A stretch of 64,000 nucleotides of DNA, taken from sequence record NC_135731.1, one strand, 5' to 3'. The translations under genes were made by a program, and so were the position numbers. The first letter of the stretch is position 1. Every line of letters starts with the position of its first letter. Source of the stretch: a phage. Shown piece after piece: positions 7,017-33,286 of the stretch. Under the pieces are notes generated by a model that ran no database searches, was not told the origin of the DNA, and saw only the letters and a list, made by a program, of their open reading frames with translations.

Positions 7017-7093
7017 TGGTCTCCACGGAGTGATTCGAACACTCGACCTCCTGATCCCAAATCAGGCGCTCTACCAAGCTGAGCTACGCGGAG
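7017..7093 (-). tRNA. tRNA-Pro (anticodon UGG)
   Basis: Minus sense CTCCGCGTAGCTCAGCTTGGTAGAGCGCCTGATTTGGGATCAGG...GTTCGAATCACTCCGTGGAGACCA; cloverleaf hand-folded, anticodon loop TTTGGGA, encoded CCA. Confidence 0.7.
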
Positions 7094-7104
7094 TATTTAT
7101 AATT

Positions 7105-7179
7105 TGGTGGCCCTGGGTGGAATTGAACCACCGTCTGGCGATTATGAGTCGCTTGCTTGAACCTTCCAGCTACAGGGCC
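7105..7179 (-). tRNA. tRNA with CAU anticodon (Met, fMet or Ile-lysidine)
   Basis: Minus sense GGCCCTG...anticodon loop CTCATAA...GGTTCAATTCCACCCAGGGCCACCA; acceptor and T-arm pair well, D-stem weak. Confidence 0.6.
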
Positions 7180-7180
7180 A

Positions 7181-7256
7181 TGGTGCTGATGGCAGGACTT
7201 GAACCTGCAACCTATTGATTACAAATCAATTGCACTACCAATTGTGCTACATCAGC
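7181..7256 (-). tRNA. tRNA-Thr (anticodon UGU)
   Basis: Minus sense GCTGATGTAGCACAATTGGTAGTGCAATTGATTTGTAATCAAT...GGTTCAAGTCCTGCCATCAGCACCA; all four arms fold. Confidence 0.75.
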
Positions 7257-7262
7257 AAAAAG

Positions 7263-7360
7263 GTGCTAGGTGATGGAATCGAACCATCTATGTATTCAAC
7301 GACTACCTCGTCTATTTTCAGGATTAAAAATCCTCGCCCTTGCCAAAGGGCTTACCTAGC
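7263..7360 (-). tRNA. atypical tRNA-like element (about 98 nt; anticodon unresolved, possibly UUU)
   Basis: Perfect acceptor stem GCTAGGT/ACCTAGC, D-arm GCCC..GGGC and T-arm GATGGTTCGATTCCATC, but about 31 nt lie between anticodon stem and T-stem and CCA is not encoded. Confidence 0.35.
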
Positions 7361-7458
7361 TCAGTATGTTGACCATGTTGCTAGTCGGCGATGACGACTG
7401 TAACATTTGATAATCCGGTTCTGCTTCCGGCTTTCGCTTAATTACAAGGCCAACAATG

Positions 7459-7549
7459 TGGCGGAGAGTAATGGAATCGAACCATCATCGAGTCATCCTC
7501 AATGGGACGGTTTTCAAGACCGCTTGAGCACCATTGCTCCCTACCCTCC
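7459..7549 (-). tRNA. tRNA-Ser (anticodon UGA), type II
   Basis: Minus sense GGAGGGT...anticodon arm GCGGTCTTGAAAACCGT...long variable arm...GGTTCGATTCCATTACTCTCCGCCA; 91 nt; anticodon arm matches E. coli tRNA-Ser(UGA). Confidence 0.65.
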
Positions 7550-7663
7550 TTTATAAATTATACTGATAATGACACTGATTTTCGAGCAGTTAGTGACTAG
7601 TATAAACGACGATAAATATCAATGCCATTATCTGTATTATTTATGCATCTAAAAATATAAATT

Positions 7664-7750
7664 TGGTGGGGAGTGGTGGAGTCGAACCACCCGAGTCGCA
7701 ATGACAATAGATTTACAGTCTACACCGCTACCTCTACGGGATAACTCCCC
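7664..7750 (-). tRNA. tRNA-Tyr (anticodon GUA), type II
   Basis: Minus sense GGGGAGT...TAGACTGTAAATCTA...GGTTCGACTCCACCACTCCCCACCA; 87 nt; anticodon loop CTGTAAA. Confidence 0.65.
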
Positions 7751-7754
7751 AATT

Positions 7755-7829
7755 TGGCACCCCGTACTGGACTCGAACCAGTGTCAACGGCTTAGAAGGC
7801 CGCTGCTTTATCCACTAAGCTAACAGGGT
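7755..7829 (-). tRNA. tRNA-Arg (anticodon UCU)
   Basis: Minus sense ACCCTGTTAGCTTAGTGGATAAAGCAGCGGCCTTCTAAGCCGT...CTGGTTCGAGTCCAGTACGGGGTGCCA; A1:U72 acceptor pair. Confidence 0.6.
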
Positions 7830-7925
7830 ACTGGGTGGCTTTCTTTTACACCTTAGCCGCCAGAAAAGGTGGGAGACCATGTTTACAATATTACACTGTT
7901 AAGCAAAGTTTGTCAAGAAAATATT

Positions 7926-8264
7926 TTAGCTATTGCTAACAGGCTGTATTTCTGTAGTAAATGGCATAAAAGGTGCTGGTTTTTCAGCCTCTTCTACTAC
8001 CACCTCTTCCTCTTCACCAAACATCTCATCATATTCTTCCTGCATTCGGTCTGCCTTATCAAGAACATACTCTGCAATGCTTTGACGAATATTTTGTTTG
8101 GTTTTCGGGTCCAACATCAGCTCTCTTAAAACTTTGTGAGCTTCTGGAACCATCGCTATAAAAGATTCCTTCATATCAAGGATGTTCTTCTCTAGCTGAA
8201 TGGCGTTGGACTCCTCTTTCAGAGGTCTGCCTCTACGGCGACGCTTTTTAGTTGTATCCGCCAT
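7926..8264 (-). CDS. hypothetical protein (basic N-terminus, acidic C-terminus)
   Basis: Track ORF 7926..8384; start re-set to internal ATG (MADTTKKRRRRGRPLK...) after the GC-rich ORF-free segment. Confidence 0.4.
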   Translation of the reverse strand: MADTTKKRRRRGRPLKEESNAIQLEKNILDMKESFIAMVPEAHKVLRELMLDPKTKQNIRQSIAEYVLDKADRMQEEYDEMFGEEEEVVVEEAEKPAPFMPFTTEIQPVSNS

Positions 8265-8610
8265 GTTTCCTCCATTATCACGTGATAGGTGGATTTTATC
8301 ATAGCAAATACTGATTGTCAAGTTCGCCGCAGGGTGGTATTCCCTGCGACTTGTCCAGCGTCCTGGACCAGCAAGACCCAACAAGTGGGTTACCAGAGGC
8401 CTATTACCCGCGCTTCGGCTCGACCTTGTTACAGGTTGGCTGGGGTCACATCGTCATGTGCTGGCTGCCCCTACCATTTTAAGTGTGGTGCACTATCAAG
8501 CCCTCTAAGGGGAACTCAGTCTTCTCCGAACCCTGTTTCAAAGCATCCGGAGATAAAGCCATCAAATTCATCTTTAAATTGGATATTCATCATGATACAC
8601 GAAAACAACC

Positions 8611-8853
8611 TCATTGTAAAGCACAAATAAATAAAACATACTTAATTTGTTTGTTATCAGGCTCAGGGTAGAAGTAGAAGATCTTGCTATCACCGATCTG
8701 AACACCACCATCCCAACAACATAGCCCATAACCTGTATTCATACAAGCTAAGTCGTTGGCAAAATCTATTGCATCATCCAGTGCACGAAATTCACCTTCA
8801 TCTTCTAAATAATCCTCATTCATGGAACGAAAAACGAGCTTAACCTTAAACAT
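8611..8853 (-). CDS. hypothetical protein
   Basis: 80 aa minus-strand ORF. Confidence 0.3.
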   Translation of the reverse strand: MFKVKLVFRSMNEDYLEDEGEFRALDDAIDFANDLACMNTGYGLCCWDGGVQIGDSKIFYFYPEPDNKQIKYVLFICALQ

Positions 8854-8929
8854 AGCATTACCTGTAGACCTCGTAAGTTAAAATTGCATCACATCATATT
8901 GCAGATCTTATCAGGTAACACTATTTTTG

Positions 8930-9139
8930 TCAACAGATTCCGGCCTTATCCTTCCTGTCTGCGTATTCTTTAATCGCAACCTCATCTGCATTAGTGACCA
9001 GGTATTCAAAGTAACTCTCAAGCTCCTCGTCAATGTCAGGAGACCAGCTCTTTTTCCTGTCAGTGTGAATTGCAGACTTGTTGAACTTATTACAGTTCTT
9101 TGCTACCGGGTTGTTCATTAAGCGCTCCTCAGCGTTCAT
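8930..9139 (-). CDS. hypothetical protein
   Basis: 69 aa minus-strand ORF. Confidence 0.3.
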   Translation of the reverse strand: MNAEERLMNNPVAKNCNKFNKSAIHTDRKKSWSPDIDEELESYFEYLVTNADEVAIKEYADRKDKAGIC

Positions 9140-9707
9140 AGTAAATTTTATTTAACATTACCTCATCTTTTGCAGAAAGAATACCGAGATATGCATCACC
9201 GAATCTACCTGCAACAACCTCTGCATGATACATCACTTCGTTAATATCGTCAAGAGTGATAACTGGATGACCGTATCTCTCTGAGTATTGTCTCAGAGTG
9301 CGATGTAGAGAGTCATCATCATAGGCAGACTTTTTAATATCGCAAACACGACGAATAGCCTTGATGTCGAAAAACCCTGTACGATACCAACCAAGAAAAA
9401 GGTTTCGTGCAGTGTCAACATCTACATCAATACCATCAAGAACCTTATCTACAAGATAGCTGTCATCCTTTGGACCTGCTTCCTTAGTGCGAATGTAGTT
9501 GCCATCTTTTCCAGGTGACAGCTCCTTCTCATCACCAACCTGCATGCCATCATTTGGCGGTGTTAACCACTTATCCGGATGCTTACGATCACGAGCGTTA
9601 GAATGATTACGCTGGAAACCCGGCTTCCACTTGAAAGTTTTCTCCATCTGTTCTTCATTCTGATAACGTTTTGCAATCTTTTCACGGTCATCTTTGCGTG
9701 GACTCAT
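9129..9707 (-). CDS. hypothetical protein
   Basis: 192 aa minus-strand ORF, no recognised motif; AGGAGG-like RBS upstream. Confidence 0.45.
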   Translation of the reverse strand: MSPRKDDREKIAKRYQNEEQMEKTFKWKPGFQRNHSNARDRKHPDKWLTPPNDGMQVGDEKELSPGKDGNYIRTKEAGPKDDSYLVDKVLDGIDVDVDTARNLFLGWYRTGFFDIKAIRRVCDIKKSAYDDDSLHRTLRQYSERYGHPVITLDDINEVMYHAEVVAGRFGDAYLGILSAKDEVMLNKIYYER

Positions 9708-10209
9708 AGCTGCCTCCTCTTCAAGTTATAGAAAAACTCACTGTATCGCTTTGTAACGAGCTTTTCTATCAAACTGGTGCGATTGCCTTACTTGGTATAG
9801 TTTATATGGCTGTGGAGCGATTTAGGGGCCTCATTGTCCGTTTCCACACATAAACTTTATCCAAACTCGCTCGGGAGGCTCTCAACCGACTCCTTACGGC
9901 GCTGGCAAGCTTTCGTCGGTGGTCCACATTAGTGCTCGGCCTTTGGCCTGCGCTATCGCTTCGCTCCCACACATGTTAACAGACCTGCATGTATGCACTT
10001 CTGTTATTGTGTGCACTATGGAGGCCAGGCATCTCGCCCCTCGTAGGCGAGTGCCAATGAAGGGCCGACACTACCTATAGAATGTAATAAATTTAAAACA
10101 TGGTACTTAGGATCTAGTATATTCTACATAAGTTAAGTATATGTACTTAGTACCATAAGTACTAGATCTTTTATTTTTTATTATTTAGTTATTTTAGTTA
10201 TATTCTTTA

Positions 10210-10295
10210 TGTGTCCGTATCACGGACAGTTAGTGTCCGTATTACGGACAGATGTGTCCGCGTGACGGGCAGTAGTGTCCGTATCACGGACAGTT
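10210..10295. repeat. four tandem palindromic iterons TGTCCGTATCACGGACAG
   Basis: Copies at about 10212, 10234, 10255, 10276 (two identical, two with 1-4 substitutions); each has inverted half-sites TGTCCG/CGGACA; AT-rich palindromic tract 10085-10200 adjacent. Confidence 0.8.
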
Positions 10296-10367
10296 AATAG
10301 TTTCTGTTCCATGGTGAACATAAAACATACAAATCCTTATAGTACAGATATTTAAGTTTTTACTGGT

Positions 10368-10718
10368 CTAACCAGTTGTTGACATTCGAATAACTTCTTC
10401 TGGTGGCAAAACTTTGGAAAATGTGCATCTTTTACCTCTCCCTTGTGTGGATGTTTCAACAACTCCTGCACATTCTAAAGTTTTAACGCACGCTGCTGCT
10501 TTTGTTTTCTTTATCCCAACATCTGCTGCAATTTTCCTTGTGCTTGGTGTGAAGTGTGAATTTCCTCCAAGCTTATACCAGTTGTGCAGGTAGCAGTATA
10601 CAATCTTGTCATACAAGTCAAGAACAACAACCTCCCCAGTTGTGTCATTCAAAACTTTTGACATAGATAGTATTTCAAGGGGGACTTTAAGATATAGCAG
10701 CTTATCCCCATCTTTCAT
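10368..10718 (-). CDS. hypothetical protein, possible DNA-binding protein
   Basis: 116 aa ORF immediately upstream (minus sense) of the iteron array; HTH-like segment TRKIAADVGIKKTKAAACVKTL. Confidence 0.35.
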   Translation of the reverse strand: MKDGDKLLYLKVPLEILSMSKVLNDTTGEVVVLDLYDKIVYCYLHNWYKLGGNSHFTPSTRKIAADVGIKKTKAAACVKTLECAGVVETSTQGRGKRCTFSKVLPPEEVIRMSTTG

Positions 10719-15243: not shown

Positions 15244-16526
15244 TGCATCAGATCAAAACAACACTGTACGCACTGAATAAAGATGGCAGCTACCAACAGT
15301 GGAAAGTATTCACGGATGGTGATAAGGTTATCGTAGAGTTTGGCAAGCTTGATGGTAAACTGCAATACAAAGAGACGATCTGCACACCTAAGAACGTGGG
15401 TCGTGCCAATGAAACTACAGCTGAGCAACAGGCCGAGCTGGAAGCGATCAGTAAGTGGGAAAAACAAGTCCGTCTGGGGTATGTTGAAAACATGGAAGAT
15501 TGCGAGCAGGGTGTTGATCTTTTACCCATGCTGGTGCATGACTACCTGAAGCGTGGCAAGGCACTTAAATTACCTTGCTGGATCTTGCGTAAGTTAGATG
15601 GCCTTCGTCTGCTTGTTGTTTTCCAAAATGGTGAGCCTAAATTTATTTCCCGTGGTAATAAGTCCTACCCTATTCAAGGAAAGCTTTTAGAGCAACTTCG
15701 TTCTTTCCATTCTACCACTGGGATTAAACAACTTGATGGGGAACTATACATTCATGGTCTTCCTTTGCAGAAAATAGTGTCTCTTGCTAAACGGTGGCGC
15801 ACACAGGAAGAGATTCAGGCCGAGATCGATAAAGACTATGAGGCAGATAAAAAACGCCGTCATGCCGCAATTAAGGCAGGCTTATCAACATACAAAAACT
15901 TCAACAAGGTAGATATTCCTGTCGATGTTGAGCCTGTTCGTGATGATTTGCGTTACGGTGGGTACTGTAGCTACGATCTGGAGTATCACATTTTTGATAT
16001 TCCTAGCGACAAGGTGTGGTGGGATCCAGAAACAGAGTCTGGACGCTGCAAGGATCTTATGGATGCAGGGGATACCGTTACCACTCTGATGCTTGACCAT
16101 ATCAAGGTTGTTGACGCAGAGCTTGCGTACACAGTTGATCATTGTGAAGAATCTGTTGGTATATTCATGTCCGAAGGATATGAAGGTACTATCATGCGTA
16201 ATTTCTGCGGTAAATACGAGTACGGTCAGCGAACATCTGAAGCATTGAAATGGAAAAAGTTCAACGACGCAGAGGTGAAAGTTATTGACGTTGAGAAAGA
16301 TAAGAATGACGAAGGTGTTCTTATCTGTGTTGACAAGGAAGGTGTTATTGTTAAAATGAAGATGAAAGGCACGCACGAGGAGCGTAGCTATGACAGGATG
16401 CAGGAAATGATCGGCAAGTTTGTCACCTTCAAATATCAATCAAGGACAGAAGACAACAACTACCAATTCCCTGTCGGTATCTGCGTCCGAAATGTTAACC
16501 CAGATACTTGGGAGGTGCTTGAATGA
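15243..16526 (+). CDS. ATP-dependent DNA ligase (T7-like) with N-terminal extension
   Basis: KxDG adenylation motif in ILRKLDGLRLLV; DGELYIHG and EGTIMRN blocks parallel T7 ligase; ends in OB-fold-like region. Confidence 0.65.
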   Translation: MHQIKTTLYALNKDGSYQQWKVFTDGDKVIVEFGKLDGKLQYKETICTPKNVGRANETTAEQQAELEAISKWEKQVRLGYVENMEDCEQGVDLLPMLVHDYLKRGKALKLPCWILRKLDGLRLLVVFQNGEPKFISRGNKSYPIQGKLLEQLRSFHSTTGIKQLDGELYIHGLPLQKIVSLAKRWRTQEEIQAEIDKDYEADKKRRHAAIKAGLSTYKNFNKVDIPVDVEPVRDDLRYGGYCSYDLEYHIFDIPSDKVWWDPETESGRCKDLMDAGDTVTTLMLDHIKVVDAELAYTVDHCEESVGIFMSEGYEGTIMRNFCGKYEYGQRTSEALKWKKFNDAEVKVIDVEKDKNDEGVLICVDKEGVIVKMKMKGTHEERSYDRMQEMIGKFVTFKYQSRTEDNNYQFPVGICVRNVNPDTWEVLE

Positions 16527-32438: not shown

Positions 32439-33286
32439 CAAACTGGCCGTTGTAAAACTCTCCTAACCTCATAAGAGGGGTCGGTAAATCCGGCTAACGG
32501 GGAACGCTAAGGCGAAAGCTATGCCAATCCCGTGACTAGTTCTTACAGGAGTTGGAACGGTTGTAACGACTAACGAAAGGCAGAGATGCTTGACAAACAT
32601 TTCTGAACCAAGTAGTGTAGGGGTTAGTTGAAATACTAACTTCGAAATGGAGAGGCTCTATGAAAAAGATCATTCTTAATGGTGAAGAATCAAACTATGT
32701 GATTGATGAGGTTGGAAACGTATACGGAAAACGTGGAATGCTACACCCAATATTGTGGGGAGGTTATGGAAAAGGTAACAAGCATGTTAAACGCCGTTAT
32801 ATGTACTCTTTCAACCACAAAGGTAAAAAGATTCGAATCCAAACCTCAAGGATTGTTGCCTTGTATTGTTTGCCAGATGTCCCAGAAGACCCTGAAAACT
32901 GGGAAGTGAATCATAAAGACGGCAATACATTGAATGATCATCCGTCTAACCTAGAGTGGGTTTTGCCGGAAGATAATAAGAGACATGCTTTCCGAACAGG
33001 GCTTTGCCCAGGTAAGTGCTATAGGAAAGTGCAGGCATACAAAGGGAAAACCTTGGTTGGTGAATATCCTTCACTCTATGCCTGTGCAAAAGCCTTAAAT
33101 TTGAACGTAGGTAACGTTCATAGGGCTATCGAAGGAAATGCCGAAGGTAAGCATCTCACAATAAAGGGTTATTATCTTATTGAAGTAGAGTAAGAGATAG
33201 TCTGGCCCTGTGGAAACACAGGGAGGAGACAGCAGACTCCATTCATCACATTAAGTTTAGGTCTGGACACCTCAGTATTTGGTAGA
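32439..33286 (+). mobile_element. putative group I intron in nrdD, carrying HNH homing endonuclease
   Basis: About 220 nt structured non-coding 5' segment, HNH ORF, then 3' segment with GATAGTCTGG...CAGACTC shared with terL introns; boundaries approximate. Confidence 0.55.
32660..33193 (+). CDS. HNH homing endonuclease (intron-encoded)
   Basis: HNH_3 motif VNHKDGNTLNDHPSNLEWVLPEDNKRHA; 177 aa. Confidence 0.8.
   Translation: MKKIILNGEESNYVIDEVGNVYGKRGMLHPILWGGYGKGNKHVKRRYMYSFNHKGKKIRIQTSRIVALYCLPDVPEDPENWEVNHKDGNTLNDHPSNLEWVLPEDNKRHAFRTGLCPGKCYRKVQAYKGKTLVGEYPSLYACAKALNLNVGNVHRAIEGNAEGKHLTIKGYYLIEVE

What the first reader, a model, noticed from the sequence alone, without database searches (positions are those of the whole stretch)
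8289..8610. GC-rich ORF-free structured segment (candidate ncRNA or intron-like element)
About 320 nt between small minus-strand genes has clearly higher GC than its surroundings, many local hairpins (GCAGGGTGGTATTCCCTGC, GCGCTTCGGC) and no credible ORF; the track's plus-strand ORF 8289..8630 looks like an artefact of composition. It does not carry the GATAGTCTGG motif of the three introns.
Basis: seen in the sequence. Interest (0 to 1): 0.45.

Follow-up and report, generated by a model that had tools for sequence, protein, structure and literature searches.

The report
Unannotated structured RNA shared by phages
The GC-rich gap holds a gene for a folded non-coding RNA whose pseudoknotted three-way-junction core recurs in rV5-like phages, T4-like phages (T4 included) and many uncultured phages, usually beside tRNA genes, matches no catalogued RNA family, and has no known function.

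Summary
Window 8324-8520 has 57% GC against 42% for the window. Its only long ORF (+ strand, 113 aa) matches no protein family, and its frame is not kept in relatives. The window is an rV5-like Vequintavirus.

The segment is not an intron. It encodes, on the minus strand, a structured RNA of about 190 nt. The core (8471-8393) has these parts:
- hairpin P1, whose internal loop forms a pseudoknot with the 3' tail;
- a three-way junction, P2/P3/P4, with near-invariant sequence AACCUGUARYAAGGUCRAG...CGGUAAU.

A covariance model of the junction scores 62.6 bits here. It finds 100 copies (71 distinct) in held phage loci. These include T4 itself (between denV and the true start of vs.8), at least eight other T4-like genera, a 360-kb jumbo-phage contig and marine contigs.

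Covariation supports P1, P2, P4 and the pseudoknot: 0 of 500 shuffles and 0 of 20,000 partner swaps reach the observed values. Rfam 15 gives no match even at E ≤ 10, and I found no paper describing the element.

Outside T4-likes it usually lies on the same strand as tRNA genes, within 50-1000 nt. Function is untested. My best guess is a free-standing early RNA that binds a conserved partner. The rivals are a riboswitch-like aptamer and a self-cleaving ribozyme.

The parts
8592..8620 (-). Candidate sigma70-type promoter (TTTACA-17-TATCAT) that could start the RNA transcript. The stronger gene B promoter at 8905-8933 also reads through this region.
   Evidence: Consensus scan only, 10 of 12 matches. 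Relatives L009-L012 instead carry TTGACA-17-TATACT directly upstream of the conserved block.
8472..8512 (-). Block 1, a 5' domain specific to the Vequintavirus lineages: CCCCUUAGAGGGCUUGAUAGUGCACCACACUUAAAAUGGUA.
   Evidence: 97.6% identical to L010 while the flanking genes are 68-71% identical. The exact 18-mer occurs only in Vequintavirus-like contigs. It shows weak, marginal similarity to pieces of the phage's own tRNA-Tyr and tRNA-Thr (p about 0.03 each, uncorrected for seven tests).
8442..8471 (-). P1 hairpin. Outer helix P1a is GGGG 8468-8471 paired with CCCC 8442-8445. The 5' internal loop is CAGCCAG. Inner hairpin P1b is CACAU-GACG-AUGUG at 8447-8460.
   Evidence: The sequence diverges (40% identity to L010) but the pairing is kept: GGGG/CCCC here, GGAAC/GUUCC in L009, GGGAA/UUCCC in T4, GCGU/ACGC in L024, and others. 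Swap test: native 120 against 98.1 ± 3.5, 0 of 20,000.
8461..8464 (-). Pseudoknot 5' strand, CCAG, inside the P1 internal loop.
   Evidence: Pairs with CUGG at 8393-8396. Other lineages have different complementary pairs at the same positions. Swap test 0 of 20,000.
8438..8440 (-). P2 5' strand, GCC. P2 is the closing helix of the three-way junction.
   Evidence: Pairs with GGC at 8399-8401. The two inner pairs are never broken in 71 distinct sequences (CG/GC/AU and CG/UA/GC/AU).
8423..8436 (-). P3 hairpin, ACCU-GUAACA-AGGU, with a GURRNA hexaloop.
   Evidence: The stem is invariant in almost all members. The first pair changes A-U to G-C in 4 of 71 distinct sequences (e.g. Salmonella phage CGG4-1).
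8410..8419 (-). P4 mini-hairpin, GCC-GAA-G(C)GC.
   Evidence: The middle pair covaries: C-G 51, U-A 11, G-C 2.
8402..8409 (-). Junction strand J4/2, GGGUAAUA (family consensus GGUAANR).
   Evidence: GG and UAA are invariant in the 34-sequence seed alignment.
8399..8401 (-). P2 3' strand, GGC.
8393..8396 (-). Pseudoknot 3' strand, CUGG.
8329..8390 (-). Lineage-specific 3' hairpins: P5 (8376-8390), P6 (8350-8375, GACG loop) and P7 (8329-8347). No U-tract terminator follows.
   Evidence: Compensatory changes between the window and L008: P5 is ACCC/GGGU against UCCC/GGGA, and P6 is GUCCAG/CUGGAC against GCUCAG/CUGAGC. No terminator was found here.
8293..8321 (-). Boundary feature, not part of the RNA: the promoter of the next gene (7926-8264), TTGACA-17-TAAAAT with an extended TG.
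   Evidence: 11 of 12 consensus matches.
7017..7829 (-). Context: a cluster of seven tRNA genes on the same strand, downstream.

Best explanation
The segment is a gene for a structured non-coding RNA of about 190 nt, read from the minus strand with the early genes and the tRNA cluster by host RNA polymerase. It belongs to a phage-wide RNA family that no catalogue I could search describes.

The family fold is as follows. Hairpin P1 has a 5' internal loop that pairs with the tail downstream of the junction, forming a pseudoknot. P1 sits directly against a three-way junction, P2/P3/P4, whose junction strands and P3 hairpin are almost invariant in sequence.

I propose that the RNA acts as a free-standing, trans-acting molecule. 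The pseudoknot would lock the junction into a rigid pocket that binds a partner conserved across hosts. That partner is most plausibly a component of the tRNA or translation machinery, or a host defence factor. On this reading the RNA resembles the other orphan RNAs of phage tRNA islands: ROOL, GOLLD and T4 RNA C/D.

What is shown: the fold, its conservation, its strand, its distribution and its genomic contexts.

What is inferred: that the RNA is transcribed and stable, that it acts in trans, and what it binds.
For: Identity of the window: an rV5-like Vequintavirus. All 118 close relatives in the phage collection carry the segment.

Conservation pattern expected of an RNA: block 1 is 97.6% identical, P1 40% identical with its pairing kept, and the flanking genes 68-71% identical.

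Covariation:
- P2 and P4 in 34 seed sequences: 93.8% paired against 83.7% in shuffles, covariation score 0.295 against 0.113, 0 of 500 shuffles reach it.
- The same pairs in 71 distinct sequences: 95.0% paired, score 0.326 against 0.097, 0 of 500.
- Native against swapped partners: P1a 120 against 98.1 ± 3.5, and the pseudoknot 93.0 against 68.4 ± 3.6, each 0 of 20,000.
- Within T4-like genera the pseudoknot covaries in a fixed register: CCUGG/UCAGG, CUCGA/UCGAG, CGCCGA/UCGGUG, CAC/GUG, CGC/GCG, ACCA/UGGU.

Strand: G-U pairs occur only in the minus-strand sense, and all neighbouring genes are on that strand.

Family membership and spread: the covariance model scores 62.6 bits here. It gives 100 hits in 100 held loci and 35-72 bits in T4-like genera. 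The core pattern gave only 2 hits in one genome from each of 185,579 bacterial and archaeal species, so the element is phage-specific.

Signs of an autonomous unit:
- It has its own sigma70-type promoter in L009-L012 and L025.
- It has its own terminator in L066, L080 and L120, and terminator-like ends in L033 and L023.
- No protein family is shared next to it across lineages.
- In T4-likes the upstream gene varies and the downstream gene also differs in KPV15.
- Two complete tandem copies occur in two T4-like contigs.

tRNA context: same-strand tRNA genes lie 46-1000 nt away in most non-T4-like lineages. ROOL and GOLLD are likewise 'often near tRNA islands' (PMC12286853).
Against: No expression data were available, so neither the transcript nor its ends are shown.

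Folding energy of the single sequence is not beyond shuffles. An energy test of the pseudoknot with wide windows was also not significant (mean z 0.1).

In this window and in T4-likes no terminator follows the element. The RNA would therefore be part of longer transcripts and would need processing to act in trans.

In nearly all T4-likes it sits directly upstream of the vs.8 ribosome-binding site, which fits a cis role equally well.

The loop and tail windows used in the pseudoknot swap test were delimited by hand.

The binding partner is pure inference. An idea that the core mimics rRNA did not survive a shuffle test (p = 0.11-0.9).
Confidence: 0.5

Rival explanations
1. The element is a cis-acting aptamer (a riboswitch or a protein-binding leader). 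The pseudoknotted junction would sense a small molecule or protein and control transcription read-through or translation of whatever lies downstream.
For: A compact junction plus pseudoknot with invariant unpaired nucleotides is the typical anatomy of riboswitch aptamers (established knowledge). In T4-like genera it lies 30-70 nt upstream of the vs.8 start, in the 5' UTR. Tandem copies exist, as with several riboswitch classes. Several members are followed by a terminator.
Against: The downstream genes are unrelated across lineages. Several copies are followed by tRNA genes or sit between them (L046, L083, L107, L119). In this window a strong independent promoter separates the element from the next gene. 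In L066 I could not find an alternative pairing between the aptamer and the terminator by reading the sequence. No known riboswitch model matches.
Confidence: 0.2
2. The element is a self-cleaving ribozyme of a new class that helps to process long tRNA-cluster or early transcripts.
For: Invariant junction nucleotides inside a pseudoknotted fold are typical of small ribozymes. The helix order (P1a, pseudoknot, P1b, junction domain) is the same nested double-pseudoknot topology as HDV-like ribozymes. HDV-like 'theta' ribozymes are known next to phage tRNAs (PMC10879173). The distribution is sporadic and phage-only.
Against: The position equivalent to J4/2 has no conserved cytosine (it reads CU, U, AA, A, G or UUACAU in different lineages). 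The P3/L3 equivalent (P1b) varies in length and sequence and is absent in some members. Distance to the nearest tRNA varies from 46 to more than 1000 nt, whereas theta ribozymes lie within ±5 nt. No ribozyme family in Rfam matches at E ≤ 10.
Confidence: 0.12
3. The element is a DNA-level feature or an evolutionary relic: a recombination or homing-endonuclease target, debris from horizontal transfer, or decayed tRNA genes, with no RNA function.
For: More distant Vequintavirinae have tRNA genes at this position instead. Block 1 weakly resembles pieces of tRNA-Tyr and tRNA-Thr. HNH endonuclease genes, recognised by eye from the translated ORFs, lie next to two copies (L020, L033). The core is 88-93% identical between T4-like and rV5-like phages, which suggests transfer.
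Against: Compensatory changes that keep pairing, including strand-specific G-U pairs, are not expected for debris or for a double-stranded DNA site. The conservation exceeds that of neighbouring genes. No flanking repeats or target duplications were found. Neither ARAGORN nor the tRNA model sees a tRNA remnant.
Confidence: 0.05
4. The segment is a protein-coding gene (the 113-aa + strand ORF or a small minus-strand ORF), or it is a group I intron.
For: Some GenBank annotations place 'hypothetical protein' features over the region.
Against: The ORF has no Pfam or PHROG hit. Frame-breaking indels occur in relatives. No intron model matches, while a real intron candidate elsewhere in the window does. 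The flanking genes are complete.
Confidence: 0.02

Closest known systems
ROOL and GOLLD RNAs (large ornate RNAs of phages and prophages)
   Same: They are phage-encoded, of unknown function, rich in pseudoknots, lack a dedicated protein partner gene, and are 'often near tRNA islands' (PMC12286853). The new family is likewise found on the same strand as tRNA clusters in most non-T4-like lineages.
   Different: ROOL and GOLLD are 500-800 nt or longer. This RNA is about 130-200 nt with a core of about 80 nt. Their Rfam models give no match even at E ≤ 10. Their hosts are mostly Firmicutes and Actinobacteria, whereas this family is in enterobacterial and marine phages.
T4 RNA C and RNA D (stable small RNAs of the T4 tRNA region)
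   Same: They are small phage RNAs of unknown role encoded among tRNA genes (PMC3014915; annotation).
   Different: The T4 copy of the new family is at a different locus (denV-vs.8). The covariance model finds nothing in the T4 tRNA region. The 3' part of RNA C reads like a tRNA T-arm, which this RNA lacks.
HDV-like and theta ribozymes
   Same: The order of helices is the same (a hairpin nested in a helix, with a pseudoknot to the 3' tail that encloses a further domain). Theta ribozymes are associated with phage tRNAs (PMC10879173).
   Different: There is no conserved catalytic cytosine in the J4/2-equivalent. The P3/L3 equivalent is variable. The most conserved part here corresponds to their least conserved part (P4). 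The element is not placed at tRNA 3' ends.
Riboswitch aptamers built from a junction plus a pseudoknot (for example SAM-I, THF-I, glutamine)
   Same: The design logic is the same: a multi-helix junction with invariant unpaired nucleotides, clamped by a long-range pseudoknot. Tandem copies also occur.
   Different: No sequence or structure match to any Rfam class. There is no consistent downstream gene. Many copies lie among tRNA genes.
HK022 put RNA (RNA that makes RNA polymerase resist terminators)
   Same: Both are short phage RNAs made just downstream of early promoters and act without a dedicated protein (PMC9378689).
   Different: put consists of two stem-loops of about 70 nt and must lie upstream of the genes it affects. 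This family has a junction plus a pseudoknot and lies upstream of, within or downstream of tRNA clusters.

Membership tests
New phage RNA family (P1-pseudoknot plus P2/P3/P4 junction), defined here | Three-way junction with P2, invariant P3 (ACCU-GURRNA-AGGU), the P4 mini-hairpin and J4/2 GGUAANR | tested here: met
   Covariance model R1 scores 62.6 bits (E 4e-21) at 8391-8445, minus strand.
New phage RNA family (P1-pseudoknot plus P2/P3/P4 junction), defined here | P1 hairpin abutting P2, with its 5' internal loop complementary to the tail 0-7 nt after P2 | tested here: met
   P1 lies at 8442-8471. CCAG at 8461-8464 pairs with CUGG at 8393-8396. Family-wide swap tests give 0 of 20,000.
Group I intron | Match to the conserved catalytic core (Rfam RF00028) | tested here: not met
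   No hit at E ≤ 10. The same model gives 27.7 bits at 32936-33223 elsewhere in the window.
Group I intron | Interrupts a gene whose exons flank it | tested here: not met
   The segment lies between complete genes. Relatives keep both genes and the element.
tRNA / tmRNA | Cloverleaf or tmRNA model | tested here: not met
   ARAGORN and the Rfam tRNA and tmRNA models find nothing in 8289-8610.
HDV-like / theta ribozyme | Nested double-pseudoknot helix order | tested here: inconclusive
   The order of strands is the same, but the helix lengths and the P1.1 element have no counterpart.
HDV-like / theta ribozyme | Conserved catalytic cytosine at the first position of J4/2 | tested here: not met
   The equivalent spacer reads CU, U, AA, A, G or UUACAU in different lineages.
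HDV-like / theta ribozyme | Self-cleavage | not testable with these tools
   This needs an in vitro transcription and cleavage assay.
ROOL / GOLLD | Match to the Rfam models; length above 500 nt | tested here: not met
   No Rfam hit. The element is about 190 nt.
ROOL / GOLLD | Phage-encoded and near tRNA islands | tested here: met
   PMC12286853.
Riboswitch (generic) | Consistent class of downstream genes, and an expression platform overlapping the aptamer | tested here: not met
   No neighbouring protein is shared across lineages. An independent promoter separates the element from the next gene here.
Riboswitch (generic) | Ligand binding | not testable with these tools
   This needs in-line probing or ITC.
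Protein-coding gene | Conserved reading frame or a family match | tested here: not met
   No Pfam or PHROG hit. Frame-breaking indels occur in relatives.

The most novel reading that the evidence does not exclude
The junction-pseudoknot core is a new catalytic or ligand-binding RNA class. It could be a ribozyme, or an aptamer or 'sponge' for a host signal or defence factor. Very different phages, T4 among them, would deploy it early in infection. That would make it the first functional structured regulatory RNA of this kind recognised in T4.
Probability: 0.25. Interest if true: 0.92.

Novelty: categorically new. Interest (0 to 1): 0.8.

Why it matters
T4 and its relatives are among the most studied viruses. 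A 2010 review states that no riboswitch or trans-acting small RNA had been functionally characterised in T4 (PMC3014915). This analysis finds a complex RNA fold with strong comparative support, unannotated, in more than a thousand sequenced phage genomes. It is shared with unrelated rV5-like phages, a jumbo-phage contig and marine contigs.

The invariant junction implies a specific molecular partner or a chemical activity. Its habitual place in tRNA islands links it to the unsolved question of what the orphan RNAs of phage tRNA clusters do.

The family is small enough (a core of about 80 nt) for direct structural and biochemical work. T4 genetics makes the function directly testable.

It also corrects annotation. 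The first 37 codons of the long vs.8 ORF in T4 (the ORF that starts at the first ATG) and several 'hypothetical proteins' in rV5-like genomes lie over this RNA.

Tried and rejected
1. Known RNA families. I ran Rfam 15 at gathering threshold on the whole window, at E ≤ 10 on 7800-10300 and on 8300-8560, and on eight related loci. Only tRNAs were found.
2. Host origin. There is no match in 5,426 E. coli genomes.
3. Vs.8 pseudogene. tblastn of T4 Vs.8 against the region matches only 13 residues, and these lie over the RNA core. The '4MG tail fibre' match was chance (E 0.19).
4. Single-sequence folding energy, and an energy test of the pseudoknot with wide windows: not significant.
5. RNAalifold on a MAFFT alignment gave a poor consensus. 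It did reveal the P2 pairing.
6. A second copy in the window at 16065-16117 (18 bits) is antisense inside a 427-aa ORF, so I treated it as chance.
7. Distant Vequintavirinae (KB57, SSE121, 4MG, Hena1) have no copy.
8. Neighbouring proteins: none is shared across lineages.
9. rRNA mimicry. The window and L025 cores share GUAACAAGGU with 16S 1497-1506, and the T4 core shares CGCGGUAAU with 16S 526-534. The longest matches are no better than for shuffled cores (p = 0.11-0.9).
10. CRISPR-repeat mimicry. By recollection, GAGUUCCCC matches the start of the E. coli type I-E repeat, but the sequence is not conserved in relatives, so I dropped the idea.
11. Mobile element. No flanking direct or inverted repeats were found.
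12. Homology to T4 RNA C/D: no match.
13. Literature. Eight full-text searches, including one for the core sequences themselves, found no description.
14. Acceptor-like closing stem. GUUCCCC near the 5' end could pair with GGCGAAC near the 3' end in this lineage, but the L009 group has no equivalent, so I did not adopt it (reading of the sequences).

Full report
**What the window is.** The 1.1 kb around the finding is 100% identical to Escherichia phage phiWec196 and 95-100% identical to 118 rV5-like Vequintavirus genomes. Every gene in this part of the window is on the minus strand. Gene B lies at 8611-8853 and gene A at 7926-8264, and both match PHROGs of unknown function. Seven tRNA genes follow at 7017-7829. 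Near-consensus sigma70-type promoters precede gene B (8905-8933), gene A (8293-8321, TTGACA-17-TAAAAT) and the tRNA cluster (7888-7916). A weaker candidate lies at 8592-8620.

**Checking the observation.**
- The interval 8324-8520 is 56.9% GC, against 42.4% for the window.
- The only long ORF is the + strand ORF 8289..8630. It has no Pfam or PHROG match.
- Relatives carry indels of 1, 2, 8, 14 and 24 nt across that ORF, so no frame is conserved.
They are P7 and P4 below.
- Folding energy alone does not stand out (z = -1.7 on the minus strand, -0.7 on the plus strand).
- Rfam 15 has no match, even at E ≤ 10 on a 261-nt search.
- ARAGORN finds no tRNA or tmRNA there, and E. coli genomes hold nothing similar.

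**The first lead: a match to T4.** A sensitive BLAST of the segment found, besides the rV5-like phages, a 44-nt match of 86-90% identity in several hundred T4-like genomes. In T4 it lies just downstream of denV, inside the first 37 codons of the long vs.8 ORF. Several T4-like contigs have an in-frame stop there. Their vs.8 must start at the later MRTFLTG methionine, so the matched stretch is non-coding. In T4-like genera outside Tequatrovirus the same place is an unannotated gap of 155-195 nt. I checked Jiaodavirus, Moonvirus, Karamvirus, Tegunavirus, Mosugukvirus, Gelderlandvirus, Dhakavirus and Mosigvirus.

**The second lead: intermediate relatives.** IMG/VR contigs L009-L012 encode a gene A protein that is 68-72% identical and keep the same gene order. 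The aligned identities to L010 are:

| Region | Identity to L010 |
|---|---|
| Flanking genes | 68-71% |
| Block 1 (8472-8512) | 97.6% |
| P1 hairpin (8442-8471) | 40%, pairing kept |
| Junction (8399-8441) | 73% |

Block 1 is nearly as conserved as the neighbouring tRNA-Tyr gene, which is 100% identical. P1 keeps both of its helices through compensatory changes. The differences in the junction fall in paired positions and in the P4 loop. In L009-L012 a TTGACA-17-TATACT promoter sits directly upstream of block 1.

**Extent of the family.** Pattern scans for the core gave the following (false positives such as L021, L034/L039 and L116-L117 set aside by eye):
- 21, and later 69, stretches in viral contigs;
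- 32 in metagenomes;
- only 2 in one genome from each of 185,579 bacterial and archaeal species, both in metagenome-assembled genomes.

The element is therefore phage-specific. Carriers include T4-likes, both Vequintavirus-like groups, a 360-kb jumbo-phage contig, contigs of 46-47 kb and about 70 kb, and marine (TARA) contigs.

**The fold** (RNA sense = window minus strand; coordinates).
- P1a: GGGG 8468-8471 pairs with CCCC 8442-8445.
- The 5' internal loop of P1 is CAGCCAG. Its CCAG (8461-8464) pairs with CUGG (8393-8396) to form the pseudoknot.
- P1b: CACAU-GACG-AUGUG at 8447-8460.
- P2: GCC 8438-8440 pairs with GGC 8399-8401.
- P3: ACCU-GUAACA-AGGU at 8423-8436.
- P4: 8410-8419.
- Junction strand J4/2: GGGUAAUA at 8402-8409.
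- Lineage-specific hairpins P5-P7 follow at 8329-8390.
- Block 1 (8472-8512) is a 5' domain found only in the Vequintavirus-like lineages.

**Comparative support for the fold.**
- On a 34-sequence core alignment, 93.8% of cells pair, against 83.7% in shuffles. The covariation score is 0.295 against 0.113, and 0 of 500 shuffles reach it. Every slid register falls to 20-39% paired.
- A covariance model built from that alignment scores 62.6 bits at 8391-8445. It finds 100 copies, 71 of them distinct, in 100 held loci.
- On those 71 sequences the two inner P2 pairs are never broken: CG 46 / GC 17 / AU 7, and CG 50 / UA 9 / GC 7 / AU 2 plus two G-U.
- The first P3 pair changes from A-U to G-C in four sequences. 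The middle P4 pair is CG 51 / UA 11 / GC 2. This alignment was fitted to the model, so it leans towards the structure. The MAFFT alignment does not have that bias.
- P1a and the pseudoknot vary in length, so I tested them by swapping partners between lineages. Native P1a strands give a summed helix score of 120 against 98.1 ± 3.5. Native pseudoknot strands give 93.0 against 68.4 ± 3.6. Each is 0 of 20,000 permutations.
- Within T4-like genera the pseudoknot covaries in one fixed register: CCUGG/UCAGG, CUCGA/UCGAG, CGCCGA/UCGGUG, CAC/GUG, CGC/GCG, ACCA/UGGU.
- G-U pairs occur only in the minus-strand sense.

Two caveats apply. I delimited the loop and tail windows for the swap test by hand. An energy-based test with wide windows was not significant.

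**Genomic context.**
- No protein family recurs next to the element across lineages. Reading the translated neighbouring ORFs, I recognise a lysozyme, a T7 gp2.5-type SSB, a topoisomerase subunit, a thymidylate-synthase-like enzyme and HNH endonucleases (by eye, not tested).
- Several copies have their own promoter (L009-L012, L025). L066, L080 and L120 have their own intrinsic terminator, and L033 and L023 have terminator-like ends.
- In most non-T4-like lineages, tRNA genes lie on the same strand 46-1000 nt away. They lie upstream of, downstream of or on both sides of the element.
- Two T4-like contigs carry two complete tandem copies.
- More distant Vequintavirinae have tRNA genes at this position and no copy of the element. 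The core is 88-93% identical between rV5-like and T4-like phages. Together these suggest horizontal transfer of the RNA module on its own.

**Interpretation.** The element is a structured RNA gene of a family I could not find in Rfam 15 or in the literature.
- It is not an intron. No intron model matches, and no gene is split. A real group I intron candidate elsewhere in the window registers with the same model.
- It is not an HDV-like ribozyme, although the order of helices is the same. No cytosine is conserved in the J4/2-equivalent, the P3/L3-equivalent is variable, and its position relative to tRNAs is not fixed (PMC10879173 for the defining features).
- It is not a homologue of T4 RNA C or D.
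- The closest analogues by context are ROOL and GOLLD, large phage RNAs of unknown function that are 'often near tRNA islands' (PMC12286853).
- Its autonomy, its variable neighbours and its position among tRNA genes favour a free-standing RNA that binds a conserved partner through the invariant junction.
- A cis-acting aptamer fits the T4-like arrangement upstream of vs.8. A new ribozyme class also remains possible.
- Transcription, stability, mode of action and partner are all inferred, not shown.

**Confidence.** I put about 0.9 on 'conserved structured RNA of an uncatalogued family' and about 0.5 on the trans-acting mechanism.

Noticed in passing
window 10211-10296: Four tandem 21-22-bp palindromic repeats (GTGTCCGTATCACGGACA...) lie in a 660-bp ORF-free stretch. 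The stretch is upstream of a 116-aa gene (10368-10718, minus strand) that some records annotate as a replication initiation protein or transcriptional regulator. The repeats look like iterons or operators. The stretch is less conserved among rV5-like phages (92-96%) than the RNA region.
   Followed up: partly
The other two 'intron' motif sites (36975, 57453) are one-mismatch matches, and such matches are no more frequent than chance.
   Followed up: partly
L002 1443-1553 (T4 GT7, KJ477686.1 about 64,780-64,891, complement): The first 37 codons of the long T4 vs.8 ORF (starting at the first ATG) lie over the RNA element. Several T4-like phages have an in-frame stop there, so the true start is probably the MRTFLTG methionine. 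A conserved hairpin, GCCA-NGGAA-UGGC, sits just before the vs.8 ribosome-binding site.
   Followed up: partly
L111 9019-9184; L103 5088-5252: Two complete tandem copies of the junction-pseudoknot unit lie about 110 nt apart in two T4-like contigs.
   Followed up: partly
window 7262-7360 (-): A 97-99-nt tRNA-like gene is called by ARAGORN with a four-base anticodon (tRNA-???). It scores weakly in Rfam (37.5 bits) and is annotated tRNA-Lys(TTT) in phage Gotham. It may be an unusual or intron-bearing tRNA.
   Followed up: no
window 8548-8568 (-): A 21-nt block, AAAGAUGAAUUUGAUGGCUUU, downstream of gene B is conserved with L009-L012. There it forms a possible 8-codon mini-ORF (MKDEFDGF) with a Shine-Dalgarno-like AGGA. 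Its function is unknown.
   Followed up: no
window 8472-8530 (-): Block 1 and the bases before it weakly resemble the 5' part of the phage's own tRNA-Tyr (GAGUU-CCCCUUAGAGG against GAGUUAUCCCGUAGAGG) and the D-loop of tRNA-Thr (UUGAUAGUGCA against UUGGUAGUGCA). Each gives p about 0.03, uncorrected for seven tests.
   Followed up: partly
phage collection records MG0656xx ('Campylobacter phage' C2, C7, A112b and others): Eighteen records labelled Campylobacter phages are 99-100% identical to E. coli rV5-like phages over this region. The host labels look doubtful.
   Followed up: no
L046, L083, L085, L091, L107, L113, L119: In this subgroup an extra long-range helix (GUUGUGAC/GUCACAAC, and GUUGUGAA/UUCACAAC in L046) encloses the whole core. 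A conserved A-rich linker, GAAAGCAAA, precedes P1 and may be an RNase E processing site.
   Followed up: no
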